NCBI GenBank assembly: GCA_023920165.1
Contig: CP089275.1
Span: forward strand, 992,001 to 1,056,000
Origin: Curvularia clavata
Lineage: Eukaryota
Length of the DNA: 64,000 nucleotides
Direction: 5' to 3'
Part shown: one piece after another, positions 33,311 through 61,800 of the stretch
Position numbering within the stretch: position 1 is the stretch's first letter
Layout: the number at the start of each line of letters is the position of its first letter
Made by a program: the position numbers and the translations under genes
Notes under the pieces: model-generated
Databases searched by the model: none
Seen by the model: the letters and a program-made list of their open reading frames with translations, nothing else
What the model was told of the DNA's origin: nothing

Positions 33311-33332
33311 GGCACGATCACGTGATTGTGCC
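33311..33332. other. Near-perfect 22-bp palindrome centred on an ATCACGTGAT E-box
   Basis: GGCACGATCACGTGATTGTGCC is self-complementary except for one pair. Confidence 0.6.
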
Positions 33333-34810: not shown

Positions 34811-37800
34811 TTAACAAACAATGTCAAGACCGTCATCCACATCCTCTCTCATGGCCACCTCCTCATATAAGCTCTTGAACCAGCTGCCCTGGCGCTCCAA
34901 CAGCTTGTGTGGACGCCCATATTCGACAAGCTGGCCCTTGTTCATGACGACGACCTTGTCGAAGTCAAGTATAGTGTCCAGTTTGTGGGCGACTGAAATG
35001 AGGGTGTGGTGAGGGAAGGTAGAGCGAAGGAGGCGTTGGACATGAGCGTCCGTTGCTGCGTCAAGGCTAGGAGCGTACTGTTAGCAACTCGTGCGTTTTA
35101 GAAAGGGGATGGAATAAGACGTACTTGCTAGTGGCTTCATCCATAATCACCACGCTTGCTTTGTCCTTTCTCAGCATAGCGCGGGCCAAGCAGAACAACT
35201 GACGCTGACCGTGGGAGAAGTGCAGGTCGTCGACTTCGACGTCTAGTGGATGAGCATACTTCTCAACATCTCCCTTGGCCACGATAATGTCCCACAGCTG
35301 GACGTCCTTCATCACGGCCATGATAGCCTTGTCATTTGATTCGCCTAGAGGATCAGCGTTGAGTCGAATGGAACCAGGGAGCAGGTATGCGTCTTGTGGA
35401 AGGCCGATGAGCCGACTGCGGATGGTCTGGCGCGGGATCTCAGTGAGGGGTAGTGAGTCGATAGTGATGCTGCCGGAAGAAAGCTCAATCATGCGGAAGA
35501 GAGAGAGGACCAATGATGATTTGCCGCTGCCGGTTCGGCCAACGATTGCTACCTTCTCACCAGGCTTGATCGAAAGAGAGAAGTCTGAGATTACAGGTTC
35601 GCCAGGACTACATTATTAGCCTACGCTTCTGTAATAGAAAGAGGGAACTTACCGGTGGCATGCTTCGACGTTGTTGAATTCGATCTTACCGGAACTGGGC
35701 CAGTTGGGTGGGGGAACCCGATCCTCGCCCTCCTTATCCTCTGTGATGGCGTCGGTGGTGAAGCTCTTGACCCTGGCTACACTACCAATATGCGTTTCCA
35801 GTTGTGTCCAGAATGAGATCAGTAGCTTAATACTCTGAGAAAAGAGTACAACATTGAGAAGGGCAACGCCCACATACCCAGCGCTGAGCTTTCCTTTCAA
35901 TGTTACGACAAGAACAATGAGAATAGTTGCTACTCCCGCGACCACGAGATCCAGAACAAGAGTCAGCCAACGTTGAATCGCGAAGAGCAGGTAGAAAGGC
36001 CGTTGGCTACGGTCAAGTAAAGTCTTGGCCTTCTTCTCGACATACTCCTGCCATCCGAACGCGCGAATAGTTGGGAGCCCCTCGAGGATCTCGCTGAATT
36101 GGGTGTAGAGCGGAGACTTCGCTTCCAAATCGAGGAAACGAAGCTGGCGAGATGTGCGGAGGTAGAATTTCTGAATGAAGTAGACGCTTATGGCTACAAC
36201 TGGAAAAGCGATAGTGGCATAAGGGGCTGCCACGGCGATAAGGGCCATTTGGCCGACACAAAGAACGAATGTAGCAAAAGTATTCAATGCGGCAAGCGGC
36301 AGTTCCATGTCAATCAACATGAGATCTTGGCTGAAGCGGTTGAGCGTGACACCTGAATCAGTAGTAGAGAAGAATGACATGGGCGAGCTATGATCCGTTA
36401 GCCTATTGCGGTATTTATTTTAGAACATTGAACTTACCCAAGCACTGTGTCCAAGAGTTTCTTGTGGAACGCAACACCGGAACGGGGAACCATAGTGATA
36501 ATGAGCTGCCAGCAACTGACGATGAGGAAGATCATAGCCAGGCCACCGAACGTAGCATAGATACCCAGCCAGTATCCCAGACGCTGATTAGGATGTTCTT
36601 GGTTGTATTCAGCCCACATCTTAACCCAAACTGTAGGGAAAGAGATTCCAAAAATGAAGACTATGATCGAAAAGATGAACACCATAGTTGGTGCCCAGCC
36701 CACTGAGCCAATATAGTAGAAGTAGATGGCGGTATCTCCAGTGCGACGGTTGGTCTCGGCTTGGATTTCCTCTTCAGTGAGTTTGGTATTGTCAACCTGA
36801 CGCTCGGTATATCTGGGTGGAGCTTCGTAGGTATGCTTCTCTGGGGCAAAGTTCCAGTCTGGCTTTGGAAGATTGAAGCCTGATACATAACCGCCAGACT
36901 TATTCAGCTTGTCAAAAGATCCTTGTTCAGAAATCTTTCCGTCTTGGCTGAGAGAAACAACGTGATCGCAGTAAGGCAAGCGTTTTTCTAGAGAGGGTGT
37001 TAATGAGAAGATGTTTCGTGTAAGGGAAAGATAATCACAAACCGGATGATGAAGAGATTAGAACAGTCGTCCTACAACGCCTCAGTAGCCCTTTTCTGCC
37101 AAAAAGACTGTGGAAGATACGGTTCTCTGTCTGCCCGTCAAGACCGCTAAGACAATCATCAAGGATAATAATATCCTTTTGTGCATATACCGCTCTTGCA
37201 AGTGCCTATCCGGTCAAAGAGTCAGTGCAGCTCTAACATGAACGTGGGGGAAAAGTGGGGGGAATCTCACAATGCGCTGGCTTTGACCGCCACTTAGTGC
37301 GATACCCTTGCTGCCGATCTGCGTCTGGTCGCCCTGGGGCAGTTGTCCAAGGTCCTCATCCAAAGCACAGGCCCGGACAACCGACGAATACCAACGCTGG
37401 TCAAAATCTGATATACCGATGATACTTTCCTGCACAGTTCCATTCGTTTGCCACGAAGTTTGGTCACATAATGCGATGCGCAGGGAGGACACCTGCAGGG
37501 AGCCACCCATGACCGGCAATTCTCCTAGCACTGCTTTGAGCAGGGTAGATTTGCCACAGCCTACAGGTCCCACAACCATGGTAATCTTGCCTCGTGGAAC
37601 AATCATGTCGATTTGCTGCAAGATGCCGTCAGGCTGCTTCTCCGCGTCCCACCCAAAATAGCCACCTTCTATGACGATAGCTTGAGAAGTGTTGCACTCT
37701 TTGACTTCGACAGAAAAACGGCTCTTTTGGGAGACAATGGAGCTCTTCTCAGACACACTGCCACTTTCTGGAAGCCACGTGACACTACCTGCGTGCGTAC

Positions 37801-39825
37801 CTGTAAACCTGCGGCTGTCCGTTCGCGGAGCCTGTGCAATGAACTCTTGAATTCGCTGAAACGACCCAACGCCACCCATGAGCGACGAGAGTGCCATAAT
37901 CATCGAACCAAGGGGTTCAGTGAGCAAGGTGAACAAGGAGAGAGAGGTAAAGACAGTAGCGGTATCAAGTGCGCTTTTGCCGTCGCTGTTTCGTGCAATG
38001 ACGGAGAAAACCGCGAATGCTAGGATTGGTGATGCGATGGGCGAGATGTACGCTATCTGGGGTTAGTGTGTGACGGAAGTGATGCAGTAGCGGTTATCTT
38101 ACTGAAACCCATGGTCCAAATCAGCAGCTTACGAAATTTCTTCGAGATGTTGAGCTCGTCAATTCTCAGCTTGTGCAGATCTTCGCGCAGTACTTCTGTT
38201 AGGCCACCCATCTTCACTCCCTTCATGGAGCTAAGCATGGCGCTCGTGGCAGCTATGCGCCGCTCGATGCCCTCGAGCCAAAGTGCTTGTCGCTGCATCA
38301 CCATGCTGGTGGCAGCTATGGAACCGAGCAAGGAAAGGACTGCGATACCAATAGGAATAGCGCATGCCGCGCCCAACTGTCGCTGAAGCAGGTACATCGC
38401 AAGAGCAATTTCTAGTGCATTGGACCAGATCTAGAGGGAAAGAAGATGTTAGTGGATTTTGTGCAAAGTAGATGATATCCCAAATATAGTTACCTCATGA
38501 CTAGTTTCCATTCCGGTCACAATACGTTCAACATCTGCACTCATTAGTGTGATGGAAGAAGCGGTGTCAACATTAGTCAATGCGACTTCGGTGGCTTTGT
38601 TGTATAGCATTGAAATCAGTCCACCTCGCATCTGTGTGATGAAGCGAAACGTCAAATGCATATACTGGCCTGTAGAGACCTGAATGTAATGTCAGTCAAA
38701 ATCCGATGCACCATGGTCTGCTTGGGCGACGAACCGCAATACCAACAAACACAATGACATATGCTCCAATCAGTCCGTAACCAATATTTTTGGCTTGAGG
38801 ATTTTGAGCCTCTTGGGAAAACTTCACAGCCCTGTTGATGAGGAATGGCTGACAAAAGTTGAAGCCAATCAGACAAAGCCGAGGTGGGACGACTGCCAAG
38901 ATAGACCACTTCAACCTTCCCACAGTTGTCGTAAACAGAGCATTCGGGGTAGGATTTGACACTGCAACAGCACCGATGGTTAATAGGCTGATCAAAGTCA
39001 TCAGCTTGAATTTGGACTTACCTCGCGCCCATGCGGAACCGAGCACATGATGTACGTAGTCTGCACGGAGATATTTATCCAACTGAAAGAGATCATCCAC
39101 AGTCAAAGCCTTAGAAAACCCTTTCCTGAAAAGCTCATTGAGCCACCAGAATGAAGCGCGCTTGTAGATGCCACTTGTGGCCTCTGGGGGGCAATCGGCA
39201 TACTCTGGAAGTAGATGCTTCCGTTTGTCCCGACACTCGACTATAGCCAAAAACAACTTGACGGCAAGCCGAGTAGCGAACACGGCAGCCACAAGGCTTA
39301 GATTAGGGCCCAAAGCATAACTACGCGATCTTTCCAGGTCGAAAAAAAAGCTGAAGAAAAGGTATATGTTGAGCAGAAGCGAGGGTCGGATAGAACGCAT
39401 ATGTTCCACGTAAGAGAAGAAGCCTAGCAGTGAGGCACCGACGAAGTTGACAGCCGCAGAAGGTATCTCAACTGGGCTCAAAGATACATTCCGGTTTGTC
39501 CAAAGGACGAGAAGGGCTAGCTCGAAGCCGGCGAAGATGGCCCATCCTATCTGTCATGCCCAGGTTAGCCATGATCATGCTGCGTAAACATAAGACATAC
39601 TAGCTTTGTGTAGAGTAATGTTGACCTTGTAACCTTGGTCTTTCTTCGCCAGAGATAGACGGCTCTGAATGGGACGATAGAGATGATGATGGACAAAGGT
39701 ACAATGGAAAGAAAGATCTCAGAGAAGAGCAGAGTGAAATCGAAACCTCCACGACAGTTAGGCCCAGCATAGGGACCAAAAGTGTCGTCCACTGAGGTGC
39801 AGTTCACATCTCGTCTCGACGCCAT
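34811..39825 (-). CDS. ABCC/MRP-type ABC exporter (TMD0-TMD1-NBD1-TMD2-NBD2); 11 exons (introns 39551-39600, 38962-39021, 38680-38734, 38431-38493, 38053-38102, 37206-37270, 36988-37042, 36388-36437, 35608-35652, 35067-35124)
   Basis: N-terminal DDTFGP...CRGGFDFTLLF motif of fungal ABCC proteins. NBD1 has GPVGCGKS, LSGGQ and IIILDD. TMD2 has FYLRTSRQLRFLDLEAKSPLY. NBD2 has GRTGSGKS, FSHGQRQLFCLARA, VIMDEATS and ISVAHKL. All ten introns have GT..AG ends and keep the frame. Confidence 0.95.
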
Positions 39826-42800: not shown

Positions 42801-43851
42801 CAAAGTGATACACCAGTGACGCGCCTGCAAACCTCACCTTCTCTCCTTTGCCTCTCTTCCCCACCGCCAACACCATCTCTCATCTCCAGCATGTCGCAAT
42901 ACATGAGCGCCACAATATGGATGAAATCCGTCCTCTCAGATTGCCGTAGTGCCTCCGTTGCCGGCATGATGCCGACTTCCTGCCTCTGCATCCAGCCGGC
43001 ATCGCGCCCGTGGCGTCCCTGCTGCTCGACCAGTTGGTAGCCTTTTGCTTTTCTGTGTTGGGAGATTGGCCCCCGGACCACCCTACACTTGGTGCACTAT
43101 GTTTCCCCAGAAGGAATGTCCATGACTTACCACGAGATAATCCAACGACCGATACCGCAATGCTGCTCTCGCTACCACCTGTGCTGTCGATCTCCTAAAC
43201 CCTACATGTCCTTGACCGCCAGAGGGTCCTTGCTGCCCGTCTGCCTGCAAGTACCGGTTGTTTGCCCTCGCATCCCATGCTTCACAAGCGTGTGTGTGTG
43301 GCTGATGATAGACAAAGTACACAGCAGTCGTTCCATCCCAGTCGTGCAGGCTGGGACGTGGCGGCTCAGGAGTCACAAGCTCCGTGTACGTCGCACCACT
43401 CGTTTAGCCTTTTCGAGACAAAATAGCAAGCTCTAAAAAGCGCTGCTCCAACTGGGCGTCCTGCCTCAGGCTATCGCATAATTCCCGTCTCTGACCTTTC
43501 GACGTGAATGATTCTAGTTCCTGCTCATTGTTTCTTGGACTGCCTTGTTCGCCCTTCAGACCACGCCTGCACCCTGCCTGCCCCTCCACTGACCCCTCAT
43601 CTCATCTCTTCTGGTAAGGAACTGTAAATTCGAGATTTTGCTAACCTACAGCATTGCCACATACTATACCACTGGCCTTGGTACGTTCATTCTCCTCCTA
43701 GCAACTGTCGTGTTGAGCGGTCCCAAATGCGATTCGTGCAAAGTTTTCCTCAGTCCGGTTCCCCGCGCTTTTGTTTGCTTCTCTTCAGTCTTGAAGTTAT
43801 TGTTCAACGTAACTCATTGCGTTGCAGGCATTCCATAATCACATCTCGCAA

Positions 43852-46800
43852 ATGGCGTCTAATCACAACCACCAAATGGAGCAATGCCTCCAATCAATTT
43901 GGGCTCATGTCCTCAACTTACCTCACGTACCCCTCGACCAGTCATTTCTATCCTTGGGTGGAGACTCCATCTCTGCGATGCAAGTAGTTGGCCAATGCCG
44001 CAAGGATGGGTTGAGTCTTGGCGTTCAAGAGGTTCTTCGAAGTCGATCCATCACTCAGTTGGCGACTGCAGTAAAAGAAGTAGAGAGCTCTTCATACGAT
44101 CACGAGGAATATTTTGATGAGGAATTCAACCTTTCGCCTATCCAGTCTCTCTACTTCCAACGACCCAACACGGACGGCCATTTTAACCAATCCTTTTATC
44201 TCCGAGTCGCTCGAAAAACCAGTGCAAACGAGTTTCATGCCGCGGTCAATCAGATCGTCACACGTCATTCGATGTTGCGTGCGCGATTCTCCTACTCAGA
44301 GGAACGTGGATGGCAACAGCGTCTCACAAGTAAGATACCCCACGTGACCTCACTTTATTCAAAGCATTCGCCTAGCTCTGCGTTTTATCTATCCTATGTT
44401 CTAGTGCGCAATACTGACCACTATTCAGACGATGTTGAAGGATCTTATCGCTTTCGCCATTCCTCTGTAACTACTCAAGCCACAATTGACGCCTCAATTG
44501 AGGACACACAGCAATGTCTCAATTTTGCCACAGGACCCCTCTTTGCTGCCGACTTCTTCGATTACGGAACTCAGCAATTCGCATTTCTTACTGGCCACCA
44601 TCTAGTTGTTGACCTAGTCACATGGCGACTTTTGTTGGAGGAACTAGAGGAGATATTGAAGGGTGGACAGCTGTTGGCGCCAGCACTTCCGTTCCAGAAA
44701 TGGGCGGAACTCCAACAAGAGCACGCTGAGTCTTTGGAGCTCAGCGATGTGCTTCCAGAAGTAAACGTTCCTCCCATGGATTTTACATACTGGGGAATCC
44801 AACATCAGGATAACACCTATGGCAATGCAAGTCATGCCAGCTTTGAGCTTGACAACGAGCTCAGCTCAGCATTTCTCACCACGTGCCACAATGCTTACAA
44901 GACGGAGCCGGTTGAAGTCTTGCTCGCATCTCTAATACAGTCTTGGTCTCAAGTGTTTACCGACAGACCAATTCCTGCGATATTCAACGAAGGTCATGGT
45001 CGCGAGCCATGGGACTCAACTATCGATATCACCCGTACCGTAGGGTGGTTTACTGCGCTGTCACCCATCCTCGTGACGCCATCTGTAAAATCTACAGACA
45101 CCGTTCGAAAGACAAAGGACTTCAAACGCCGCATTCCGGGGAATGGCCGGCCATACTTTGCTCGACGATGTCTCACACCAGATGGCCGTGAAACCTTCAA
45201 GTCACATTGGCCAATGGAAATATTGTTCAATTATCTTGGCCAATATCAGGTATGTTGACATTTAACTCGGCAGCTGCGAGCTTTTTACTGATACGTTTTC
45301 TAGCAACTAGAGAGGGCGGACGCCCTTCTTCAGCCCTTGGGTACTATGGCAGGTGAGACTGGCAAGGCCGGTGGAACTTCCGACTTTGGACACAGCACTT
45401 GCAGATGGGGTCTTTTCGAGATCTCTGCTTTTGTGTTCAAAGGCCGTCTCAAAGTCGCCTTTACATTCAATCGGGACATGCTTCATCAGGCAAACATCTT
45501 GCGATGGGTCTCCGAGTGCGAGGCCACCATCTCGAATATGATACGCGGGCTGAATGCATTGGATCCAAAGCCAACTCTCAGCGACTTTCCCTTATTGTCC
45601 CTGACAGAGGCTAGTTTCAACTCCATCCTGGACCGGCTGTCAGCTATGGGTATTCCCGACGCCAACATCGAGGATATTTATCCCTGTTCCAGTATGCAAG
45701 AGGGCTTATTACTGTCGCAGACCAAGAATGCTGGGTATTATGCTGCAGCTACACTCCACGAGGTCATAGCGCCAGCGTCTGGAATGTCTTTTGAGGCTAT
45801 TGCCAAAGCTTGGTTGCAAGTTGTGAAGCGGCATCCAGCGCTACGGACTATCTTTGCCGAGAATGTGGGCGCCAAGGGCCTCTACAACCAGATTGTTCTC
45901 AAGGAAATCGAAGCCAATATCATTCGCCTTGAGGCAGCTGACGAAAATGATGCCATCAAGCTCATTGAGCAACAGCGATCCGTTTCTTACAACCACGGTC
46001 AATGCCCAAACCATCGATTCACAATCTGTACCACAGTTGAAGGAAGATTCTATTGCTCCCTAGACATCAGCCACGCGATTATGGATGGGCATTCCATGAG
46101 TTTGATCGCTAGCGAGCTGAGAGACGCATGCAACGGGCAATTGACACTCGACTGCACTCCGCTCAGCGCGTACGTCGCATGGCTTGCCCGTCAGCCAGCG
46201 GAAGCCAGTCTTGACTTTTGGAAGTCATATCTACATGGCTGTGAGATTTCCTCATTTCCTGTCCTTGACGACGGCCTGGGTCAGCTCCGCGAAAAAGAGC
46301 TAGTAACCATCCGTATGGACCTGACCAGTATCAGCTTGACTGACTTTCAGCATTTCTGCAACGCCAATGGAATTACATTGTCAAACGTATTTCATACTGC
46401 ATGGGCAATTACTCTTAGTTGCTATATTGGCAGTCAGGACGTCACTTTCGGATATCTTACGTCTGCACGTGATTCCGACGAGATCGAAGACGTCCAAAGC
46501 ATCCTTGGACCTTTGATCAATACGCTCGTCTGCCGGGTCAACCTCTCCGATGGGTCGCGTTGCCTTCTCGATGTACTGCAGGATGTACAGAGAGATTACA
46601 TGGAGGCTCTTCCACATCGACATACAGCCTTGGCTGACATTCAGCATGCTCTTGAGCTATCGGGTGCCAGTTTGTTTAACACTGCATTGTCCTACCGTCG
46701 CTTGCCTCAAGAGCAAGTAGTTGACGAAATGGGTGTTCGCTTGCGAGAAGTTCGCCCAATCTATGACCCTACCGAGTAAGTCGCAGGACTCAAAGTACCA

Positions 46801-49800
46801 GCGTTGAAAGTATGCTCTTCGGAATTTTCTAACCTTTTCCCTAGGTATCCAGTCGGCATCAACATTGAAGTCGGTGACGAGAGTGCAGCCATTGATCTCG
46901 ATTATTGGACGGACCATCTTACTACGGCTCAAGCCACGAATGTCGCCAACACATTTATTCGGGCCCTGGAGAATATTGTGTTCAACTCCAAGCGACGAAT
47001 TTCCACTCTGGATCACATCAGCGCGCATCATTTACAACAGATCAATGGTTGGAATGTGATGCCAGCAACCATCAACGAATGTGTTCACGACAGGTTTTCG
47101 CAGTGGGCTACGCGCCAACCTGACGCTCCGGCAATATGTGGACACGATGGTGAATACACATACGCAGAGCTGGAAGCAGTGACCGATCGGCTTGCACATT
47201 ATCTAGTTGGGCTGGGTGTCCAGCCTGAAACGTTCGTTCCCACATGCTTCGACAAAAGTGTGTTTGCCGTCGTTTCCATGCTATCCGTTCTGAAAGCAGG
47301 TGGTGCCGCGGTTCCACTTGACGCTGCACATCCCACGTCTGCACTTCAAACGCGTCTTGAGGACGCTAGCGCAAACCTTGTGTTGACCACAGCCGTACGT
47401 GTACACAAATTCGAAGGGCTTGTAGACAACGTGATAGTAGTAGACGATTCACTGTTGCAAAGCTTACCATCAGTACATGGCCCGGCCTGCACAAGCATAC
47501 AACCACACCATCCTGTGTTTGTCATTTTCACGAGTGGGAGTACTGGAAGACCAAAGGGCGTCGTCCTTGAACATTCAGCTATCGTTACCAGTGCGGAAGC
47601 TCACGGATCGAAGATTGGACTTGATCAGAACTCGCGAATGCTGCAGTTTGCCTCCTATACGTTTGACAATTCCCTAGAGGAGATGTTTACTACCCTCCAG
47701 AGGGGAGGTTGTGTGTGCGTTCCCTCTGAGGCTGACCGCGTCAACGACATTCCTGGAGCTATCAGTAAGCTGAATGTCAACATCGTGGATCTCACGCCCA
47801 CAGTGGCATCACTACTGATGCCTGAGGAGGTTCCTACACTCAAACGCTTATGCCTTGGCGCAGAACCATTGACTAAAGCGTTGATTGACCTGTGGAGTCA
47901 GCACATCTCTGTTATCGGACAGTACGGACCCAGCGAAGCTTCCATCAACTCGGCATTCAAGGATTTCAGTGATGGCCAAGGTGAAGCCACCAACATCGGC
48001 AAAGCTGTCGGCTGCGTTACATGGGTTGTTGACCCTGAAAATCGGGATCGTTTGATGCCGATTGGGTGTAAAGGAGAGCTACTTCTTGAGGGTCCCATCC
48101 TCAGCCGTGGATATCTTAACGATCCTGAGAAGACACAGGCTGCGTTCATCAACGACCCCGAGTGGGCTCGCGCTACAGGGCGAACTGGACGTCGCTTCTA
48201 CTGTACCGGAGATTTAGTCCAATATACTTCCGACGGTGAGATGATGTATTTGGGCCGAAAAGACTCGCAAGTCAAACTCCACGGACAGCGCATCGAGTTG
48301 GGCGAGATCGAACACCACCTTAAACTCAACCTCCCTGCCGGAGCCAAGTCAGCGGTAGAACTGGTCAAATTCAACGACAGCAACGGTACCAAAGCGCTGG
48401 TTGCATTCCTGTGTCTATCCGAAGTCGAAGAAATGCCAGCCATCGGTGATATGAATGAGTCGTTGCGAGCCGTGGCAAAGAACGTCGAAATGGCGCTTGC
48501 CAATGCGCTTCCCGTCTACTATGTACCCTCAGTCTTCATGCCAGTCACACGCATGCCCATGACCACATCGGGAAAACTCGACCGGAAAGTGCTACGGGCC
48601 CTCGCGGCGGCGGTCCCAGAGTCGCAACTCACGTCCTTCCGCCTGGCAGGAAAGAGCGGTCGAGCACCCCAGGGACATGTAGAAGTGGCGTTGGCGAATG
48701 CCTGGGCTTCAGTGCTGAAGCTTAGCGGTGGTGCAAGTGCGATTGGCGCTGAAGACTCCTTTTTTCGCCTGGGTGGAGACTCAATCACCGCCATGAAGCT
48801 AGTAACCGCAGCGAAAAAGGACGGAATCCTGCTGAATGTGGCTAATGTTTTCTCGCATCCGAAACTGATCGACTTGGCGGCGACCGCCGTCGTGTCGTCA
48901 TCAGAGGAGATTGTCATCAACGATGCGTACCCATTTGAGATGATTTCTGCAGCCAGTCGCCCCAAGCTCTCGGAACTCGCAGCTTCAGAATGCGGAGTTC
49001 CATTGAATGCGATCGAAGACATCTATCCTTGCAGCAAGCTCCAGGAAGGTCTCATCATGTTGACCAATAAGGATCCTGGTACATACGTAGTTCAGCCCAT
49101 CTACAGTCTGCCATCCGACATCGACCTTGCCCGATTCAAAGCCGCCTGGAAAGCTATCTTTGCTGCTGAATCCATACTTCGTACTCGTATCGTATACTCC
49201 GAACAATATGGCTTTGTCCAGGTCGTTCTGCGGGAAGAACTTCCCTGGTTCTCCCTTCCCGACATTCAGCACATCAACGAAAGTACCAGAATGCTTCCTG
49301 CTAAGAACGGTGCACCCCTGACCACGTTCACGCTTGTAGGAGAGAATACTGCGAGACCTATGTTCGTTTGGACGGCTCACCACGCCCTGTACGATGGTTG
49401 GAGCTGGGCATCTCTGTTTCGCAAAGTTGAGATGCACTATCGCAATGACGTGCAAGACATCCCACCCACTGTACCCTACTCACGCTTCGTCAAATACCTT
49501 CGTTCCTTGGACCAGAAGAAGTCTGACGAGTTCTGGCTCTCGCAGCTTGACAATGTTACGGTGGCTCAATTTCCGCAGCTTCCATCCCCTGACCATCATG
49601 TGGAAACCAATGGACAGTTGGTTCATCGCGTACAGCTGCAGAAAAATCAAAATCTGGAAGTCACAGTACCTTCGATAATCCGCGCTGCATGGGGCCTTCT
49701 ACTGGCAACTTATTCTGGATCCGACGACGTCGTTTGGATGGAAACCAATAGTGGGAGGGAAGCTGCTGTTCCTGGTATCGAGGCCATCATCGGACCTACC

Positions 49801-52800
49801 ATTACGACTGCACCTGTTCGTTTGAGGCTTAACCGCGGCATGACTGTCCATGAGTATCTGAAAGAAACCCAGACACAATCCTCTATGTCTCTGCCCTATC
49901 AGTTCGCCGGCCTGCAACACATCCGCAAGCTTAACTCAGAGACAGCAGCAGCTTGCGAGTCGCAGAGCTTTCTAGGTATTGAGGCTGCCGAAGACGACGA
50001 TGCGGAAGGTCAACTTTGGCACATGGAGAGTAGCAACACAGTCGGCACGGATTTCCTCAACTACGCCTTTGCTTTTAACTGCAAAGTTGACTCGACAGGT
50101 ATTCGTGTAGAAGCACTTTTTGATGATCGTGTCGTTGAAAAATGGCTCGTCGAGCGCATTGTTCAACAATTCGAGTTTCTGCTGTATCAACTCAACAGCA
50201 ACAGCAATATCGAGACGAAGCTGGACAATGTGGAACTGCTAAATCCTACTGACCAGGATATGATCAGCGCATGGAACAGCCAGCCCGTACGCATCATTCC
50301 TAGATGCATCCACAACGTCATACAAGAAGATCAGTCTCTGTCAAGGCCCATAGCACCTGCGATCGAGGCTTGGGACACTGGAGTCATGAGCTACCAAGAG
50401 CTCGAAGAGAGGTCCACTGCGCTTGCGTACCGGCTGACTGCTTTGGGTGTAAAGCCTAGACAGTTTGTCCCTCTTTGCTTTGACAAGTCTGGTTGGACCA
50501 TCGTTGCTATACTCGCCGTTCTCAAAGCGGGTGCCGCCTTTGTTCCACTGGACTTTGAAGCACCTGTTCTTCGACTTCGAGAGATCGTGGGTGATGTAGG
50601 CGCAGAATTGCTGCTTTGCGCACCTCAGTATGAAGAGCTTTGCGAGTCGATACCTTGCAGGGCTCAGGTGGTGGATCGTGAGACAACTATTTACAAGAAA
50701 CCGCGCTTTCCACCGCTTCCTTTGGCCCACTTCGACGATCCGGCTTACGCATTCTATACGTCTGGATCGACCGGAAAGCCTAAGGGCGCTGTAGTGAACC
50801 ATGTCCATTGGGTCACCAGTTCCACTGCATTTGCCCCTGGCTGGAAGATCACGAACACTTCAAGGGTCCTTCAATTTGCTTCTTATACTTTCGACGCCTG
50901 CTTGATTGAGATATTCACTACCCTCATGAATGGTGGTACCGTTTGTGTCCCTGATCAAGCCGCTCGGACGAACGACCTCGCAGGAGCCATTAATCAGTTC
51001 AATGTGAATTGGGCCGCTCTGACCCCTTCAGTCGTCCGCACGATGAATCCTTCCCAAGTCCCGAAACTAGAAACCCTGTTTTTGGTTGGAGAGGCGATGT
51101 CCCAGCAAGATCTGACCACTTGGGCAAATAAGGTCACCCTCGGCAATGGGTATGGGCCTACTGAATGCGCCTGTGTCGCTACGTGCAACATCATGACCCC
51201 CACCACAAAGCCAAACAATCTCGGAGATGTCGTTACCGCGAGAGGTTGGATTGTGTCACGCAACAACCACAATATGCTTGCGCCCGTCGGAGCTGTTGGC
51301 GAGTTGTTGTTGGAGGGTGGCGCGGTCGGAGCTGGGTATCTCAATAACCCAGAAAAAACAGCTGAAGCGTTCCTCACTGCAGTCAATTGGCCTGCAAGGC
51401 TCTTGGGTACCGAAGGGCAAGTGCCTCTGCGCATATACAAGACTGGAGATCTCGTCAAGTACAACGAAGACGGCACTATGCTCTACCTTGGTCGCAAGGA
51501 CTTCCAGGCCAAGGTTCGGGGGCAACGTTTGGAATTGTCCGAAGTCGAGCACAAGCTCCTCGATGACCATATGGTGCAAAGTGCCCTTGCCTCGGTGCCC
51601 ACAAAGGGTCCTTGTGCCAAACGACTAGTCGCAATCATCTCACTCCAAAACATGCCGGCTACTCGACTGAATGTTGCAGGGCCATTGCAGATTCTTGCTC
51701 CAGAAACCGCTTCAACCAATATCGACAGCATCCGAGACAGTCTTTGTGAGCGCTTGCCAGCATACATGATACCATCTTTGTGGGTAGCCATCAATCGCTT
51801 CCCGTTAATGCCATCCGGGAAATTAGATCGAAGGCGTGCAGTACAGTGGTTGGAGCAAATGGACCAAGCCACCTACAGAGTGATCTCTACCATGGGTGTG
51901 GAGGCTTCTGACACCCAAGGTGGATCTTCTGTTGAACAAAAGCTCCAGGAGATCTTCGCGAAGACACTGAACTTACCTGTGAGCGATGTTCGGCTCAACC
52001 AGTCATTCTTACACCTTGGCGGCGACTCCATCGCGGCTATGCAGGTTTCTTCGCAATGTCGAGCGCAGGGTTTACCCGTCAGCGTGAAAGACATCATTCG
52101 TGCAAAATCCATCACTGCTTTGGCTGCTACAGTCGATCTTTCGCAAAACTCTGAGCCTGCTCCTGAGCTTACGGAATACTCTCTGCCATTTGGTCTTTCC
52201 CCGATCCAGAAGGTGTTTTTCGAAACTGTTGGCGACTCATACAATCATTTCAACCAGGCAGAGGTGTTGCGCCTCTCCCGAAATGTAGAAGAGAATGAAC
52301 TTCGGAATGCGCTGTTAGCCCTGGTCAAGATCCACCCTATGCTTCGTGGGCGCTTTACTAGGAATGAGATTGGAACCTGGAAGCAACGCGTCGAGCAGAA
52401 TGCCGAACGTTCGTTCAGATTGCGACATCATCGCGTGCAGAAAATTGGAGACCCAGCGCTCCAAAGTGCATTCAACGACAGCCAGGCTAGTCTAGACATT
52501 ACCAACGGTCCTACATTCGCCATCGATCTCTTTGAGATTGAGGAGAGTTTCTCTCAGGTTCTGACACTCGTTGCCCACCACCTAATCATCGACATCGTTT
52601 CGTGGGGTATTCTTCTTGAAGACCTCCAAGGGCTATTGAACGGTGTTCAGCCGCTTCCTCAAAGCCTGCCGTATCACACATGGCTGCAACAGCAGTTTCT
52701 GCAAGTCAAACAGGAAAACCTCAGGGCAATCTTCCCCACTGTGGAAATTCCACCAGCAAACCTTGATTACTGGGGCATGGAAGGACAGCCCAACTTCAAT

Positions 52801-55800
52801 GGTGACTGTATTGGTGAAGATGTGCAGCTGTCAACTCGCGACACCATGCTGCTCCTTGGAGCTCAGGATGCCTTGGCCACCGAGATTGTCGATATCTTGG
52901 TAGCTGGACTTTTGGAATCTTTCCGCCACACGTTCCCCGATCGGTCCACGGTGGCAATACACAATGAAGGCCACGGTAGAGAAACATTCAATTCTCGCCA
53001 GGATTTGTCTCGAACAATCGGCTGGTTTTCGACCGCAACACCAATCTATCTTCCTGTACCCGCAAACGAGAACACTGATATCGTCAGCACGATTCAGTGG
53101 GTCAGAGACTTCAGACAGCGAACCCCAGACAAAGGACGACCTTATTTCGCTTATCGTAATCTAACTGAAGCGGGTCAAACACGGCTCGCTAGCCACTGGC
53201 CTGCCGAAGTCTTGTTCAACTATGTCGGAAGGCTGCAACATCAAGATCGCAAAGATGGCATGTTCGCTACCTTGACTGGGTTGGAATCGAAGGATATTGG
53301 AGATCGAGTCCCTCGTCTTGCTCTCTTCGACGTGACCGCTGCCATCTCCAAAGGCGCCATCAAAATATCTTTCGAATGGAACCGTAACATGAATCGACAA
53401 CAAGAGATCCGCAATTGGGTGAAAAACTGTCGACAGACCCTTGTTGATGCTATCGATGAACTTCTGCAAGTTCGCGAAAACCAGAGCCTCAAAGGCTTCC
53501 GAAGCTTACCGCTGCTCTACAATGGCCTTGACAAGATCACGAAGGCTCTACCCGCTGGGTTGACTCTTACTGAAATCGAAGACATCTACCCCACGTCCCC
53601 GATGCAGCAAGGCCTTCTCTTCACGCAATCACGCAATCCGGATCTATACACCTATGAAACCATCTGTCAAGTGAAGTCGACCAATCACAGTGGGGTTGAC
53701 CCTCATCGGCTTGCTGAAGCATGGCAAGTAGTGGTACATCGCCATCAAGCGCTGCGCACCATCTTCATCGACGGTCTTGCTAAAGATGGTTCCAAGGACC
53801 AGATTGTTGTCAAGGAAAAGCCTGGAAGAGTTCAGCTATTCGCTGGCTGCGAGGACAATCGTGTGACGAGTATGCTTCGCGAGCAATCCCTGATTGATTG
53901 CCGCGAAGCGGCGCCACCACATAGAATGACAATCTCAACGACAAAATCTGGAAAGGTGTGGATCAAGCTTGAGATCAGCCATGTGATCAATGACGGCACT
54001 TCAGTCTCCAACATGTTGGCTGACCTCGCACATGCCTATGCTGGGAAACTCTCGCGCGCAGATGCTGGACCACTTTATTCCGATTACATTGAACATGTTC
54101 TCTCCATGCCGCGAGATGCTGATCTGGCCTACTGGAAGACGTACCTTGCAGGAATGGAGCCCTGCTTCTTTCCAACTTTGAACGATGGTCAACCACTTGA
54201 AAGCAAGCCTGCTTCGGTCGTTGTTGAGCTACGTAACATGGACCCGATTCAAGCGTTCTGCAAAAAGAATGGAGTTACTCTCTCCAATGTTCTCCAACTA
54301 ACTTGGGCTTTGACACTGCACTGCTACGTCGGAGCTTCAGACGTATCTTTCGGCCTGGTTGCATCAGGTCGTGATATACCCGTGGCCAACATTGGTTCTG
54401 CCGTGGGATGCTTCATTACCATGCTTTGCGCCCGCTTGGTATTTTCAGATAACACAACCATTGCCGAATTGCTCGAATCCCTTCAGACAAGCTCAACCGA
54501 GGCGCTTTCCCATCAAAACTGTTCCCTCGCTGATGTCCAGCACGAGTTGCAGCTCCCATCTCTCTTCAACACCGCATTCACATTCCAACGCCGAAGCCTC
54601 TCTCGTGATCCCGATCAAATGGCTCTCGTATACGAGGACATGGAAGCTGATGATGCAGGAGAGTACATCGTCACTGTCAACGCAGATGTTCTGGATGACA
54701 GCATCACTGTGGACTTTGGTTACTCGCAAGACAAGATTATTCCTGCCCAAGCGCAGAACATGGCGGACACGTATGAGAAGATATTGCACGTCATTTTGGG
54801 CAACGCTGCCAGCCAGCTTACCGTTGGTAATGTGGATGCATCGACGGAAGGCAGCCTTCGCCAGATTTTGGGATGGAACTCGGAACTTCCTCCTCCTATC
54901 AATCGATGTGTGCACAGGGTCATTCACGATCAAGCTCTCACACGACCCCGCATGACGAAGGCAGTTGAGGGATGGGACGGCTCTTTCACATATCAAGAGT
55001 TTGACAGAGTTACCGACCAGTTGGCAGCTCATCTTCAGTCCATTGGCGTCACAACCGAGACCTTCGTTCCGATCCTGTTCGAGAAGTCGTCATGGGCAAT
55101 TGTCAGCATGATCGCCATCATGAAAGCTGGAGGCGCCTACGTTCCCCTCGATCCCAAGCATCCACAGTCACGACTTCTTGAGCTTATCGGTGACGTTGGT
55201 GCGGAGGTGGTCTTATGCTCCCGTCTGTATCAAGCTACAGCGGCTAAGGTGGCCAAGACTCCCCTTCTAGTGGACCAGCGGTCAATTCGGAAGCTCGCGA
55301 TGCCTGCCACGGGTGAGCTAAGGGCTGCTTCAACTCCAGACAATGCCGCCTACTGCTTGTTCACTTCCGGAACAACTGGAAAGCCGAAGGGAACTATCAT
55401 TTCTCATCGAGCGTTTTGCACCAGTGCGGCTGCCTTCACGCGTCGTATGAACATTAACGCTACGTCACGTACTTTCCAGTTCGCCTCGTATACATTTGAC
55501 GCCAGCTGTATCGAAATCCTTTCTGCACTAACAGTTGGTGCAACGGTGTGTGTGCCTTCGGAAGATGACAGGATGAACAATTTGCCTGGAGCAATCAGAA
55601 AGTTGAAAGCAAACTGGTCGCTGTTGACTCCTTCAGTTCTTGGTACCGTCGATCCAGAGCGTGTTCCTTCCTTGAAGACTCTGGTGTCGGGAGGAGAGGC
55701 TCTCCCTGGACATATTCTCAAGAAATGGGGTAGTAGCACGTACTTCATCAACGGTAGGTACCCGGAAATCTATTAACAAGATTCACTTAATGACGTGGTA

Positions 55801-58800
55801 TTTAGCATATGGACCTACGGAATGTTCGGTTGTGGCAGCTACTGCCTACAAGTCTACGCTAGACCACAAACTTCTCCCATCGGAGCCTGCCACCATTGGT
55901 ACGGGAAGTGGATGTCGATTGTGGATCGTTCACCCGCGCAACCATGACAAGCTTATGCCTGTAGGCTCTGTAGGCGAATTAGTCATCGAGGGGCCTACTG
56001 TTGCTCGCGGGTATCTTAACGAGGAAGAAAAGACTAGGAAGGCTTTCATCACCAATCCTGGATGGGCAGCAACCATTGCTGCGCAACATGGCGCATTCGA
56101 GACTGTTCGCATGTACAAGACCGGCGACTTGGTCCGCTACAATAGCGATGGCTCCGTGAGTTATATTGGACGTAAAGACACGCAAATCAAGCTCAATGGG
56201 CAGCGCGTTGAGTTGGGCGAGATCGAGTATCACGTGAGCCAGAAACTTCCGGACAATGTGCAATCAGCAGTTGAGTTGATTGCACCAAACAAAGGCTCTA
56301 TCAAGGCGTTAGCTGTGTTCTTTGCAGTTGTGCAGCCTACTCCCATCGACGAGGACCAACATGCACAAGCAACGGTGGGCATTGCATCATCCAACGATTT
56401 GCTCCTTCCTCTGGATGACCAGCTCCGCGATATATGCAAAAATGCAGAAAACGGACTCGCTGGTGCATTGCCATCCTACATGATACCTTCCATCTTCATT
56501 CCCGTGAAGAAGATGCCGTGGACATCGGCTGGAAAGTTGGACCGCAACTGTCTACGAGCCTCTATCCAGGATCTCAGTCGGCAAGAACTGGCGATGTATC
56601 GACTCAGCAGCATGGCAACCAAGAAGCAGCCCACCACCGACGCAGAAAAGAAAATTCACAAAGCTGTCTGCTCAGTGCTCAACCTTCCCCCGTCCTCTGT
56701 CGGTATCGATGACAGCTTTGTTGTAAGTGCACACTTTTCCAAAATACTTGTTGAACATTACTAATTAACGATAGCGTCTTGGTGGGGATTCTATCTCTTC
56801 TATGCGTCTCATCACCATGGTGCAGGCTGAACAAATGCAACTATCCTTCGTTGATATCTTCAAATCTCCTAAGCTCTCCGATCTAGCCAAGATCGCCTCG
56901 CCAAACAGCACTACTAGCCAAGTAGAAAAGGTCATACAGCCATTCGAGCTTCTCCACGCTCCTCTCAAAGCAACGGATGTTATTGCTCAGGTTACACAGC
57001 AGTGTCGATTGTCTGAATCAGAAATTCAGGATGTGTATCCGACAAGCCCGCTGCAGGATGCCCTCATCACGCTCACCATCAAGCAACCAGGCGCATATGT
57101 TGGGCAACATGTTTTCGCGCTGCCACAGTCTGTGGACTTGGCCAAGTTCAAGGCATCATGGGAGCAGGCTATCAGAGACATTGATATTCTTCGTACTCGT
57201 ATCATGCAGCTTCCATCCGGGACATTCATGCAGGCTGTACTGAAAGAGGACAAGGTCGACTGGAAGAGCGCCGCTTCACTTCAGGATGCCCAGGCCGAAG
57301 TTTTCAGGACCCCATCACAGATTGGAGGACGCCTGGCAGCCTACACGATTGTCGCAGCCGATTCCAGCCAGCGGTACTTTGTATGGACATTGCACCATGC
57401 TCTTTATGACGGTTGGGGAATTCATTTGATGATACAACGCGTACAGCAAATTTATGCGAAGGGCGCATCCAACATGCCGCAGAGCCCTTACGTTCAATTC
57501 ATCAAATACTTATCCAACGTCGACGACAGCATTTCAAAGGCATATTGGAAAACAAATTTGAGTGGGACAGACGCCTACCAGTTTCCTAGACCGCCATCGA
57601 CCAAGTCAAAGAACACACCAAATGGGCAGACACTGCAACATCGAATGAAGCTCGCCCCCCACAAACATGTCGACGTCACCCCGACCAACGTTCTTCGAGC
57701 TGCTTGGGCTTTGGTACTTGCCGCATACACGAACTGCAATGATGTGGTCTTCGGGGAAACCCTTACAGGTCGAGACGTTGCTGTGAATGGCATCATGGAC
57801 ACCTGTGGACCAGTCTTAACAACCATTCCAACTCGAATAATGATCAACAGAGAAGCAAGCGTTCGTGAACTCCTTCTTGCAATAGCCTCCAACGCCACCG
57901 AGCGGGTACCTCATCAACACTACGGCATTTCTGCTATCAAGGCAATTGGTGACGACGTTGCAGCTGCATGCCAATTTCAGAACCTTCTCGTTGCTCAAAC
58001 TGACCAAGAGGCACTGAACGACTCAATGTGGTCACCCCACGACAATGGTAACCAAAGCAATTTCTTCACTTACCCTTTGGTTGTCGAATGCAAGATTGGA
58101 AAGTCCAGTACCGAGGTTTTCTGGCATTTCGATGCGGACGTCATATCTCCTTGGCACGTCCAGCAACTCGCCTACCAGTTTGAGTCCGTGTTGAACCAAC
58201 TCCAAAACGCGACTCGAGTCAGTGAAGTCAGTGTTTTCAGCGAACAAGACAAACAACTCATCGGAAAATGGAATGCTCGCAAACCAGACCTCGTCGATGA
58301 AACTATACCGGCCTTATTTTACAAGCAGGTTGCTGCTCAACCCGATGCAATCGCAGTTTCGGCATTCGATGGTGAGCTCACGTACGCTGAACTCGCTAAA
58401 CATGCAACGAATTTGGCACATGAACTTGTGGGTCTCGGTGTTGGTCCTGAAACCCTCGTTTTGATATGTCTGGATAAATCTCTTTGGACAATTGTTGCCA
58501 TGTTGAGTATCCTTATGGCAGGCGGCGCCTACGTACCTTTGTCACCAGAACATCCTGCCTCACGGCACAAGCAGATCATGGAAACTTGCAAGTCTTCCAT
58601 CATACTTTGTTCGTTGCCTTACAGATCGCGTTTCGAAAGTCTGGTACAACACGTTCTCAGTATCAACGAGGACAACATACGTCAACTACCCACCTGGAAA
58701 GAACCACTTCCGCACCATATCAAGAGTAGCAACGCCTGCTATGTTCTCTTTACCTCAGGAAGTACGGGAGTGCCCAAGGGTGCGGTCGTAGAGCACAAGA

Positions 58801-61800
58801 ATGTGACTTCGAATGCGATGGCGATTAGCGAAGCAGCTCACATGAGTTCTTCTTCGCGAGTGATGCAATTTGGTGCATTGGTTTTCGATATCTCTGTACT
58901 TGAGATCTTCATCACCCTCATCATTGGAGCCACCGTGTGCGTCCCGTCCGACGAGCAACGCACTACCAATCTTGCGTTGTCATTGAATTCATTGAAGGCC
59001 GATTGGGCCTTTGTCACTCCATCGGTAGCCAGCACGCTTGATGGCCCCCAGTCTGTCCCTACTTTGAAAACCTTGACTGTTGGAGGTGAGGCAATCACTT
59101 CTGAAGTCATCAACAAGTGGGGACATGGAATCCAGTTGATGAATGTTTACGGGCCGACCGAGTGTTGCATTTTCGCTCTCACGAATGACAAGGTCCCGGA
59201 ACAACGCTCCACTACGAACATTGGAAATGTGCTAAAGAGTGGACGCGGATGGCTGACAAACCCTGATAATCCCCACCAGCTTGCGCCTGTTGGTGCGACA
59301 GCCGAGCTGTGCTTGGAAGGGTCATTTGTTGTACGAGAGTATTTGAACGATCCTACAAAAACAGCGGAGGCATTCATTGTAGACCCCGAATTTCTCAAGG
59401 GCTTCTCTCCAGCCGGCGAAAACCGAATCTATCGCACAGGAGATCTTGTGCAATATGATCCCGATGGCTCCATCCATTACAAGGGACGGAGAGACCACCA
59501 GATTAAGCTTGCTGGGCAGCGCATGGAGCTCGGCGAGGTTGAACACAATCTACAATCTGATGACATCGTCCACCAGGTTGCGGTACAGCTGCCGAAAAAT
59601 GGCCCATGTGCCAAGAAGCTTACCGCCGTTGTCAGCTTCACTGCCAGTACTCGAACCGATGCCAGTGCTGAGTGGAATACGCCACTGTTGGATGCAGAGA
59701 GTCTTTCACTGCTGAATCGCGCAAGAGAAACGCTAATGGATCGGGTTCCTCCATACATGGTTCCCATTATCTGGATAGCCGTGCCTCGAATACCGTCACT
59801 TGTATCTACCAAACTTGACAAGAAGCAGGTCGGATCCTGGCTGGAGAGTCTAGACGATGCAACGTACCAGAAGATCATGCAAACGGACGTAAGTGGAGAC
59901 ACGGCTGGAGAAATGAGTGATATTGTTGTTATGCTTCGAGAAATCTGGGCGAAAGCGCTGAATGTGCCAATTGAGAAGGTCCAGCCAAACCGATCGTGGC
60001 TTTGTAAGTGCCTCAAGTGCAGGAATACTGCATTTTATATCGCTAACTGAGACCAGCACTGGGTGGCGACTCCATCGACGCTATGAAACTGCTTGCAAGA
60101 TGCAGAAGTCAAGGCATCAATCTTACCTTGAACCAAGTGCTTGGTGCGAAGTCGCTTGCACACCTTGCTGAGAGGGTCACGTTCTCGGCCACCACAGACC
60201 ACAGCGAGGAGCGACTGGATCAACCTTTCCAGTTGGGACCTATTCAGCGGTTTTATTTTGATACACAGACCACAGAGCCCAATGCTCACTTCAATCAGTC
60301 CTCAACACTACTTCTAACTTCATACGTAGAGCATGAAGCTGTGAAGGGCGCCCTCGACGCTGTTGTTGGATGCCATGGTATGCTCCGCGCTCGGTACTCA
60401 AAGAATTCCGCAGGAGAGTGGCAGCAGCATATCCGCCCCACTGACAAATCCTACGCATTTGAAGTCCACGAAGTCTCTACTGCTTCGTCGGCTATCTCAC
60501 TTGTGGCCAATACCCAGAAAAGTCTCGATATCCAGCAAGGACCGGTTTTCGCTGCCAACATGCTTTTCATCAAAAACAAACAGATACTCTTTTTGGCAGC
60601 TCATCATCTTGTTGTCGATCTTGTAAGTTGGGGGATAATCATACAAGATCTGGAGGACGTTTTAGGATCGATTCATTCAACTCCAACCCTACAAAAAGGA
60701 ATTTCCTTCCAGAATTGGTGCGAGAAGCAAAACGCACATGCGCTGGAGCCCAGCGAACAATCGGCTGTACGAAAGCAACCTATCTCAGTACAGCCAGCAA
60801 ATGTCTCATTTTGGGGCATGGACAAGCGACCTAATCTGTACGGGGATGTCGAAAGAGACGATTTTACTATCTCCAAAGATGTCACTGCTGTTATCAACGG
60901 CCATCATCATGTCTTCAGAACAGAGCTTGTGGACATCTTCCTTTCAGCCATCATACATTCGTTCTCGCGCGTTTTCATCAATCGCAAAACACCAACAGTG
61001 TTCAATGAGTCTCATGGTCGACAAGTCTGGGAATCAAGCAACATTGACCTCTCTCGCACTGTGGGATGGTTTACTACGATGTACCCAGTCACCATCTCTA
61101 TCGGTGATGATGAAGATGAAGTTCTTCACACTATCCGCCAAGTCAAGGATACTCGTGGAAAGATCGCCGATAGTGGAAGGCCATATTTTGCCCATCGCTT
61201 CCTTACAGAACACGGAAAGGAAGAGTTCGCACACCATGCGCCTGTGGAAGTCCTTTTCAACTACCTCGGTCAGCAAGGAAAGTCCGGCAAAGGAAAGTCA
61301 TTGCTAAAACCTACCCAACTTGAGGGAGATGATGACGAGGAGACTGCCGATGTCGGCAAGAAGACCATTCGCATGGCGCTTTTCGAAATTTCGGCAGTAG
61401 TTACTGATGATCAGATTCAGTTCAGCTTCTTGTACAACCGTCACTCGAAGAACCAAAAAGGCATTCGCAGGTGGATTGCTGAATGCCAGCGCACTCTGGA
61501 GGAGATTGCCACTGAACTAGCTGAGCTCAACAAACCTCAGCCTACAATGGCGGATCTGCCTCTTCTGCCCCTAGAGTCATACAGTCGCCTTGACCGTGTA
61601 CTCAAATCCCTACCAAGTGTTGGTATCTCGTCATTCGACCTGGTCGAAAACATCTATCCCTGTTCGCCAATCCAAGAGGGAATGATTCTCAGCCAGATCA
61701 AAGCTCCTGAATCATACTGGTCTTCAACAGTCTTCGAGGTCAAGTCGCAGCGCGGACCAGTCGATGCGAAAAAGCTAGTCAATGGCTGGAGGCAGGTTGT

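What the first reader, a model, noticed from the sequence alone, without database searches (positions are those of the whole stretch)
43852..47050. NRPS begins with an adenylation-less T-E-C starter module
Seen: the first domain after the ATG is a carrier (LGGDSI at 43954), followed by a full epimerase (HHLVVD, EGHGRE, RTVGWF) and a C domain (SHAIMDG). There is no A domain upstream in the gene, and none is recognisable in the 4-kb intergenic region. Known: canonical initiation modules are A-T, and the related Fusarium NRPS4 (fusahexin synthetase) is recalled to have an N-terminal A domain. Inference: T0 is loaded non-linearly by one of A1-A4, or in trans by a separate protein, and the first residue becomes D.
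Basis: partly seen in the sequence, partly recalled or inferred. Interest (0 to 1): 0.8.

Follow-up and report, generated by a model that had tools for sequence, protein, structure and literature searches.

The report
Fungal water-repellent peptide synthetase, carrier-first start
This fungal peptide-building enzyme really does start without its first amino-acid-activating unit, but that layout is already published for its close relatives; how the first carrier gets loaded is still untested.

Summary
The gene encodes a 7,201-aa NRPS, T-E-C-A-T-C-A-T-E-C-A-T-C-A-T-E-C-T-C-T. Spliced RNA contigs of 22.5-22.7 kb (3 of 4 runs, two studies) begin about 1 kb upstream, with a stop codon in frame 21 codons before the ATG, so there is no upstream A exon. 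No A-domain remnant lies in the 43.9 kb upstream. The layout is not new: the gene is the orthologue of Cochliobolus heterostrophus NPS4 (the surface-hydrophobicity 'WARP' family, with Fusarium NRPS4), and the T-E-C start was tabulated for ChNPS4 in 2010. New here: the T-first forms make one clade (15 rows) nested among relatives that still carry an A domain before the same T-E. The missing domain is the family's A1, and I found no free copy among 19 other A domains of the genome. T0 remains under purifying selection with its serine intact. The best reading is that T0 is loaded by one of the enzyme's own A domains, giving a D-L-D-L-D-L cyclic hexapeptide (about 0.5). Trans loading and an unloaded T0 remain open. 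I found no product or loading experiment for a T-first enzyme in the papers searched.

The parts
34811..39825 (-). ABC transporter gene (1,487 aa, 10 introns), divergent from the NRPS; the usual partner in this cluster family
   Evidence: Pfam ABC_tran and ABC_membrane; 10 splice joints in 4 of 4 runs; model assembled; the end coordinate is calculated from that model
42825..43851 (+). 5' leader of the NRPS mRNA, about 880 nt after splicing, 14 upstream ATGs, none opening a frame into the NRPS
   Evidence: RNA contig ends at 42825, 42866, 42873
43681..43827 (+). 5'-UTR intron, GT..AG, 147 nt
   Evidence: joint in 4 of 4 runs
43852..64000 (+). NRPS coding region, NPS4/WARP orthologue, 7,201 aa; continues beyond the window to a stop at window-equivalent 65836
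   Evidence: six-intron model with one terminal stop (extension); the first three coding introns confirmed by RNA joints, and contig lengths fit the whole model
43879..44079 (+). T0, carrier domain without its own A domain; serine codon 43966-43968
   Evidence: conservation
44119..45564 (+). E0 epimerase (HHLVVD, EGHGRE, RTVGWF), split by introns 44330-44428 and 45250-45303
   Evidence: aligns to solved E domains of TycA, GrsA and PvdL
45667..47028 (+). C0 condensation domain (SHAIMDG, the same motif as in A-bearing orthologues), intron 46776-46844
   Evidence: Pfam Condensation E 7e-49
47086..48894 (+). A1-T1; A1 corresponds to family A2; pocket code DNEDCGQIN (acidic)
50311..53493 (+). A2-T2-E; A2 corresponds to family A3 (code DAIAFVGCV); T2 is the internal carrier most like T0
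54916..56903 (+). A3-T3; A3 corresponds to family A4 (code DAILVGAVV); introns 55754-55805 and 56723-56774
58305..61600 (+). A4-T4-E; A4 corresponds to family A5 (code DILFTGVIF); E motif reads ESHGRQ; intron 60004-60056
63446..63646 (+). T5, second carrier without its own A domain (shared by the whole family); beyond the window follow a terminal C and a T6 lacking the serine (GGDI)

Best explanation
The gene is the Pleosporales-type NPS4 (WARP) synthetase, paired with an ABC exporter, and probably makes a hydrophobic cyclic peptide for the cell surface. Its ancestor had five A domains (A-T-E-C-A-T-C-A-T-E-C-A-T-C-A-T-E-C-T-C-T). This lineage deleted the first A domain and kept T-E-C. Shown here: the layout, the transcript, orthology, loss of family A1, and continued selection on T0. 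Inferred: T0 is pantetheinylated and charged out of order by one of the enzyme's own A domains, as the family is thought to do for its other A-less carrier (T5). A2 is my weak favourite. E0 then makes the residue D, C0 joins it to A1's residue, and six loaded carriers give an alternating D-L-D-L-D-L hexapeptide that the last C domain cyclises. Family membership is about 0.95 certain; the confidence given is for cis loading.
For: The layout matches the published ChNPS4 string apart from a terminal T not listed there, and A1-A4 closely resemble ChNPS4 A1-A4 in the paper's alignment (read by eye). Window A1-A4 fall in the family A2-A5 clades and none in the A1 clade. 15 T-first rows form one clade (support 100, FastTree) nested among 31 A-bearing rows. 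T0: 79-90% identity to 11 loci, pN 0.046-0.125 against pS 0.57-0.83; more conserved than E0 (0.85 against 0.78 in 11 T-first rows), as in 21 A-bearing rows (0.77 against 0.72). No A-family hit in the 43.9 kb upstream; three of the six minus-strand frames over 150 aa in the 16 kb after the gene were scanned and are a SLAC1-family transporter, an expansin-like protein and a hydrolase. None of 19 other A domains of the genome falls in the family-A1 clade. Family precedents, all proposals from product structures: HcpA's A-less PCP4 served by a distant A, fusahexin's six residues from five A domains, and a Leu on the upstream T of the Apiospora 'TCATE' start. T0 scores highest with T2 among the own carriers (30 of 67 identical).
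Against: No product or loading assay for a T-first enzyme was found. The likeness of T0 to T2 is largely shared ancestry of carriers that precede an E domain: first-T against T2 and T4 is similar in the A-bearing enzymes, so it does not identify the loader. The one characterised fungal T-E-C starter that I found, EasA, takes a polyketide in trans. The genome holds unlinked AMP-binding enzymes, and the A-domain survey was not exhaustive (48 of 64 candidates scored, 30 loci fetched). Conservation of T0 could be structural.
Confidence: 0.5

Rival explanations
1. T0 is loaded in trans by an unlinked enzyme (an acyl-CoA or acyl-AMP ligase, an acyltransferase or a free A domain) with a fatty acyl, hydroxy-acid or amino-acid starter, giving a lipopeptide or depsipeptide.
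For: EasA (AN2545) starts T-E-C and is proposed to accept a polyketide through EasD and EasC. Chooi et al. raised the lipopeptide idea for the T-first SNOG_14834. Acuminatum lipopeptides have been hypothesised as products of NRPS4 homologues. The T-first clade has its own changes in T0, a 2-residue deletion in loop 1 and Met-to-Val in helix 2 (15 of 15, seen in none of 31 A-bearing rows), which could reflect a new partner. Other AMP-binding enzymes exist in the genome.
Against: No adenylating enzyme in the 43.9 kb upstream and no ligase, acyltransferase or PKS among the neighbouring frames scanned, whereas the easA cluster carries them. T0-E0-C0 descends from an ordinary amino-acid A-T-E-C module and C0 keeps the motif of its A-bearing orthologues. 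No family-A1 domain among 19 other A domains.
Confidence: 0.25
2. T0 is not loaded. Synthesis starts at A1 and gives a pentapeptide or shorter; T0-E0-C0 is kept for folding or architecture.
For: No loader is identified. The family keeps another carrier that cannot be loaded, T6 (no serine in the window or in 5 of 5 relatives inspected), which is still 34-40 of 67 identical in three relatives, so conservation need not mean loading.
Against: T0 keeps its serine in 16 of 16 T-first rows, unlike T6. E0 and C0 keep their catalytic motifs. There is no sign of relaxed selection after the loss of A1.
Confidence: 0.2
3. Gene-model artefact: an A domain is encoded by a distant upstream exon or by an adjacent gene.
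For: RNA contigs cannot fix a start site exactly.
Against: Three full-length spliced contigs end within 48 nt of each other about 1 kb upstream, with an in-frame stop before the ATG. 14 of 14 related loci have an in-frame stop within 60 codons and no A hit upstream; 6 of the 7 with more than 4 kb upstream show the divergent ABC gene instead.
Confidence: 0.02

Closest known systems
Cochliobolus heterostrophus NPS4 (AAX09986), with C. miyabeanus CM_10529, Alternaria brassicae AAP78735 (AbrePsy1), A. brassicicola AbNPS2 and Pyrenophora PTRG_01800
   Same: Published layout T-E-C-A-T-C-A-T-E-C-A-T-C-A-T-E-C-T-C; CM_10529 is 7,224 aa and starts TC-C; a P. tritici-repentis protein starts the same way, 85% identical over T0-E0; A domains match one to one (by eye). 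Mutants are reported to lose surface hydrophobicity.
   Different: Sequence divergence only; the 2010 table omits the terminal serine-less T. No product found in print for any of them in my searches.
Fusarium graminearum NRPS4 (FGSG_02315, fusahexin synthetase)
   Same: Same module order from the first T on, ABC transporter neighbour, A-less penultimate T; orthologous A domains.
   Different: Keeps the first A domain: five A domains for six residues, against four A domains for six loadable carriers here. Pocket codes differ, so the peptide will differ.
Apiospora arundinis NRPS4 (apiosporin synthetase)
   Same: WARP family; a 'TCATE' module whose upstream T is proposed to carry L-Leu, giving seven residues from six modules.
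   Different: T-C, not T-E-C; six A domains. The figure and supplement were not visible to me.
Penicillium HcpA and Aspergillus Pes1 (fungisporin synthetases)
   Same: WARP family; an A-less carrier proposed to be loaded by a non-adjacent A domain.
   Different: Start with A-T-E; make tetrapeptides.
Aspergillus nidulans EasA (emericellamide synthetase, AN2545)
   Same: Also starts T-E-C.
   Different: Its T0 is proposed to take a polyketide from cluster-encoded PKS, ligase and acyltransferase, none of which was found next to this gene. Not listed among the WARP orthologues.

Membership tests
WARP / NPS4 synthetases | Multimodular NRPS with an epimerase in every other module | tested here: met
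   E after T0, T2 and T4; none after T1, T3, T5
WARP / NPS4 synthetases | ABC transporter gene directly upstream | tested here: met
   1,487-aa ABC transporter, divergent, 4 kb away
WARP / NPS4 synthetases | A domains orthologous to those of ChNPS4 and FgNRPS4 | tested here: met
   tree with unnamed full-length family members (quick IQ-TREE, FastTree); comparison with the published ChNPS4 and FgNPS4 sequences was by eye only
WARP / NPS4 synthetases | C-terminal C-T-C(-T) end | tested here: met
   C-T5-C-T6 with T6 lacking the serine, as in relatives
WARP / NPS4 synthetases | Makes a hydrophobic cyclic D/L-alternating peptide; deletion makes the surface wettable | not testable with these tools
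   needs knockout and LC-MS
ChNPS4-type T-first subgroup | Protein starts at T-E-C with no A domain upstream | tested here: met
Lipo-initiating T-first NRPS (EasA type) | N-terminal T domain | tested here: met
Lipo-initiating T-first NRPS (EasA type) | PKS, acyl-CoA ligase or acyltransferase in the cluster | tested here: not met
   no A-family hit in 43.9 kb upstream; none among the neighbouring frames scanned, which were a chosen subset of the longer frames
Lipo-initiating T-first NRPS (EasA type) | Acyl starter in the product | not testable with these tools
   product unknown

The most novel reading that the evidence does not exclude
After deleting its first A domain, the enzyme builds a D-L-D-L-D-L cyclic hexapeptide with only four A domains. 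An internal A domain reaches back about 1,000-5,000 residues to charge the N-terminal carrier T0, whose loop 1 was shortened at the same evolutionary step, and another charges T5. Initiation would then be non-linear and include epimerisation. The loss may have occurred twice (P0368). As a corollary, pocket codes suggest that the fusahexin register given in a review is shifted (A1 Thr, A2 the modified Pro, A3 and A4 Leu, A5 Ala, T5 Leu), which would make loading of T5 by a non-adjacent A domain a family trait that prepared the loss of A1.
Probability: 0.4. Interest if true: 0.55.

Novelty: new member of a known kind. Interest (0 to 1): 0.27.

Why it matters
The layout is conserved in many plant-associated Pleosporales, where mutants are reported to lose surface hydrophobicity and, in Alternaria, conidial wall integrity and virulence. 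Yet I found no product or starting mechanism in print. Closely related natural pairs with and without the first A domain offer a clean test of how an A-less starter carrier is loaded, which bears on product prediction and NRPS engineering. The observation itself is not new.

Tried and rejected
Upstream A exon or remnant: none. A second candidate 5'-UTR intron that I read from the sequence (43614-43651) is not among the joints listed, and the long contigs run through it. A split-off copy of the lost A domain: the best hit of an A-bearing relative in the genome is this gene's own A2-T2-E (42%), and no other A falls in the family-A1 clade. T0/T2 similarity as proof of the loader: rejected, the A-bearing enzymes show the same pattern. 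pN/pS for the E0 part was unusable in 4 of 11 loci because an indel broke the ungapped register. The protein search reached only 5,000 residues and gave no full-length orthologues; these came. P0396 also begins T-E-C (residue 122), but its N-terminus looks like the end of an A domain, so I treated it as a truncated model. Runs X9-X14 with small word shares were not used. Three look-ups of earlier scan findings returned nothing. No structure or complex prediction was run, because an A-domain/carrier pairing would not discriminate between A1-A4. Cluster members and accession numbers of the hit proteins could not be looked up, so most relatives remain unnamed. Lee et al. 2005 was not available to read.
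Full report
Observation. With 18 kb of genome beyond the window, a six-intron model gives one open frame of 7,201 aa from 43852 to window-equivalent 65836, with domains T-E-C-A-T-C-A-T-E-C-A-T-C-A-T-E-C-T-C-T. Pfam confirms T, condensation-family and A domains at the start. The first epimerase aligns with solved E domains.

Transcript. I laid 4 of the 16 listed runs on 29000-48999. They are listed only as 'RNA?', but their contigs skip the introns, so they are spliced transcripts. In 3 of 4 runs, from two studies, a single contig of 22.5-22.7 kb starts at 42825-42873. That length fits the 21.6-kb coding sequence plus an 880-nt leader. All four runs show one 5'-UTR intron (43681-43827) and the first three coding introns; the last three introns lay outside the stretch and rest on the gene model. 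In the spliced leader the NRPS frame has a stop 21 codons before the ATG, and none of 14 upstream ATGs opens into it. tblastn with the four own A domains finds nothing credible upstream (best E 0.038 in the 4.2-kb gap).

What it is. An ABC transporter gene lies divergent, 4 kb upstream. A 2026 preprint (10.64898/2026.07.13.738209; whole main text read; supplement closed, and its Fig. S1 and Table S1 may well show this layout) defines the WARP cluster as an NRPS with an epimerase in every other module plus an upstream ABC transporter. It lists ChNPS4, AbNPS2, FgNRPS4, HcpA and Pes1 as orthologues. Additional file 2 of Bushley and Turgeon 2010 (PMC2823734; part 1 of 2 read) gives ChNPS4 as T-E-C-A-T-C-A-T-E-C-A-T-C-A-T-E-C-T-C and FgNPS4 as the same string preceded by A. 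[quoted passage not shown] Chooi et al. 2014 remarked on the N-terminal T of P. nodorum SNOG_14834, probably the orthologue (not tested here), and suggested a lipopeptide (PMC4205913, passages). The window's A domains closely match ChNPS4 A1-A4 in the paper's alignment (by eye). The architecture is therefore already published.

How it arose. Of 240 proteins from two searches, 61 match T0-E0 at 50% identity or more and better than the two internal T-E units. Of these, 25 begin too late to be informative, 3 start at T0 (including a P. tritici-repentis protein), 31 carry the end of an A domain directly before T0, and 2 more carry a variant motif or the linker. In 14 of 14 metagenome loci (three of them near-duplicates) there is an in-frame stop within 60 codons and no A hit upstream; 6 of the 7 with more than 4 kb of upstream DNA show the divergent ABC gene. 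Among 36 of the top-ranked long representatives examined (150 listed), five have the five-A layout and one (P0368) has exactly the window's layout. In an A-domain tree the window's A1-A4 join the family's A2-A5 clades and none joins the A1 clade (quick IQ-TREE). In a T0-E0 tree, 15 T-first rows form a clade with support 100, nested among 31 A-bearing rows; P0368 lies outside it, either a second loss or a truncated model (FastTree only). None of 19 other A domains recovered from the genome falls in the family-A1 clade (not exhaustive).

Is T0 used? Against 11 non-duplicate loci T0 is 79-90% identical, with pN 0.046-0.125 and pS 0.57-0.83. It is more conserved than E0 in T-first enzymes (0.85 against 0.78, 11 rows), as it is in close A-bearing ones (0.77 against 0.72, 21 rows). 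The serine is kept in 16 of 16 T-first rows. E0 and C0 keep the motifs of A-bearing orthologues, whereas the terminal T6 lacks its serine in the window and in five relatives. The 15-row clade shares a two-residue deletion in T0 loop 1 and a Met-to-Val change in helix 2 seen in none of 31 A-bearing rows (helix and loop names from general knowledge of carrier folds). This argues for a working carrier but does not prove loading, since the unloadable T6 is also fairly conserved.

Mechanism. Six carriers can be loaded and four A domains exist, so two carriers (T0, T5) lack a partner. The family is thought to handle T5-type carriers in cis: HcpA's PCP4 is proposed to be served by a distant A (PMC4041764, passages), fusahexin has six residues from five A domains, and apiosporin has seven from six modules with a Leu proposed on an upstream T. 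These are proposals from product structures, not loading assays. I put cis loading of T0 at 0.5, trans loading at 0.25, an unloaded T0 at 0.2, and an artefact at 0.02. The precedent for trans loading is EasA, which also starts T-E-C and takes a polyketide through clustered enzymes (PMC3901194, passages) that were not found here. A2 is the weak favourite as loader: it belongs with family A1 to the group of A domains from E-bearing modules, and T2 is closest to T0, but that likeness is ancestral. Pocket codes, anchored on recalled motif positions, are A1 DNEDCGQIN, A2 DAIAFVGCV, A3 DAILVGAVV and A4 DILFTGVIF; fungal codes predict substrates poorly.

A side inference. P0366, whose A domains resemble the published FgNPS4 ones by eye, has identical codes in A3 and A4 (DAMLVGAVI) and an acidic code in A2. 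The only repeated neighbours in fusahexin are D-Leu and L-Leu. This suggests the register Thr (A1), modified Pro (A2), D-Leu (A3), Leu (A4), D-Ala (A5), Leu (T5), rather than the one in a review (PMC10967133, passages). If so, T5 is loaded by a non-adjacent A domain, and T0 here occupies the D-allo-Thr position. I have not seen the primary fusahexin paper, so this remains a lead.

Literature limits. Nine searches turned up no product and no loading experiment for a T-first NPS4. Lee 2005, Kim 2007, Guillemette 2004 and Westphal 2021 were not seen. Passages only were also read from PMC3538342, PMC3554632, PMC4999850, PMC10455296 and PMC13665613.

Verdict. A real feature, correctly read, in a new member of a known family whose T-E-C start has been in print since 2010. 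The remaining value is the open question of how T0 is loaded, for which the A-bearing and T-first relatives give a natural comparison. Interest 0.27.

Noticed in passing
window 39826-42726: Unstranded RNA contigs of the ABC transporter extend far upstream of its ATG (to 40437, 40982, 41674 and 42726 in the four runs). In one run only about 150 bp separate it from the NRPS contig start. Both genes may have very long leaders or a shared two-way promoter near 42,730-42,870.
   Followed up: partly
window 43241-43296, 41722-41774, 40431-40606: Short non-coding blocks conserved at 75-86% in some related loci (L007-L010, L016) at similar distances from the ATG; the first lies in the NRPS 5' leader. 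Possible regulatory elements.
   Followed up: partly
window 42825-43851: The 880-nt spliced leader holds 14 upstream ATGs, one opening a frame of 106 codons; translation may be under uORF control.
   Followed up: no
L002:3525-3578 (window-equivalent about 65525): The terminal T6 has GGDI in place of GGDS, so it cannot carry pantetheine; five full-length relatives also lack the serine.
   Followed up: partly
window 60998-61030: The third epimerase has ESHGRQ in place of EGHGRE; effect on activity unknown.
   Followed up: no
protein P0366 and PMC2823734 supplement: Pocket codes suggest a shifted module-to-residue register for fusahexin compared with a review.
   Followed up: partly
PMC13665613: That paper calls AbrePsy1, which belongs to this family (its link to AAP78735 is recalled), a destruxin B synthetase. 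This looks doubtful: destruxins contain N-methylated residues (recalled), and the published ChNPS4 layout has no methyltransferase domain.
   Followed up: no
G000:C4:4307711-4347115: A single open frame of 13,064 aa with many A domains: a very large multimodular NRPS elsewhere in the genome.
   Followed up: no
window 27590-31405 (+): A 1,271-aa open frame with no Pfam match at E 0.1.
   Followed up: no
protein P0368: A 7,174-aa T-first enzyme outside the main T-first clade and without its loop deletion: a second loss of the first A domain or a truncated gene model.
   Followed up: partly
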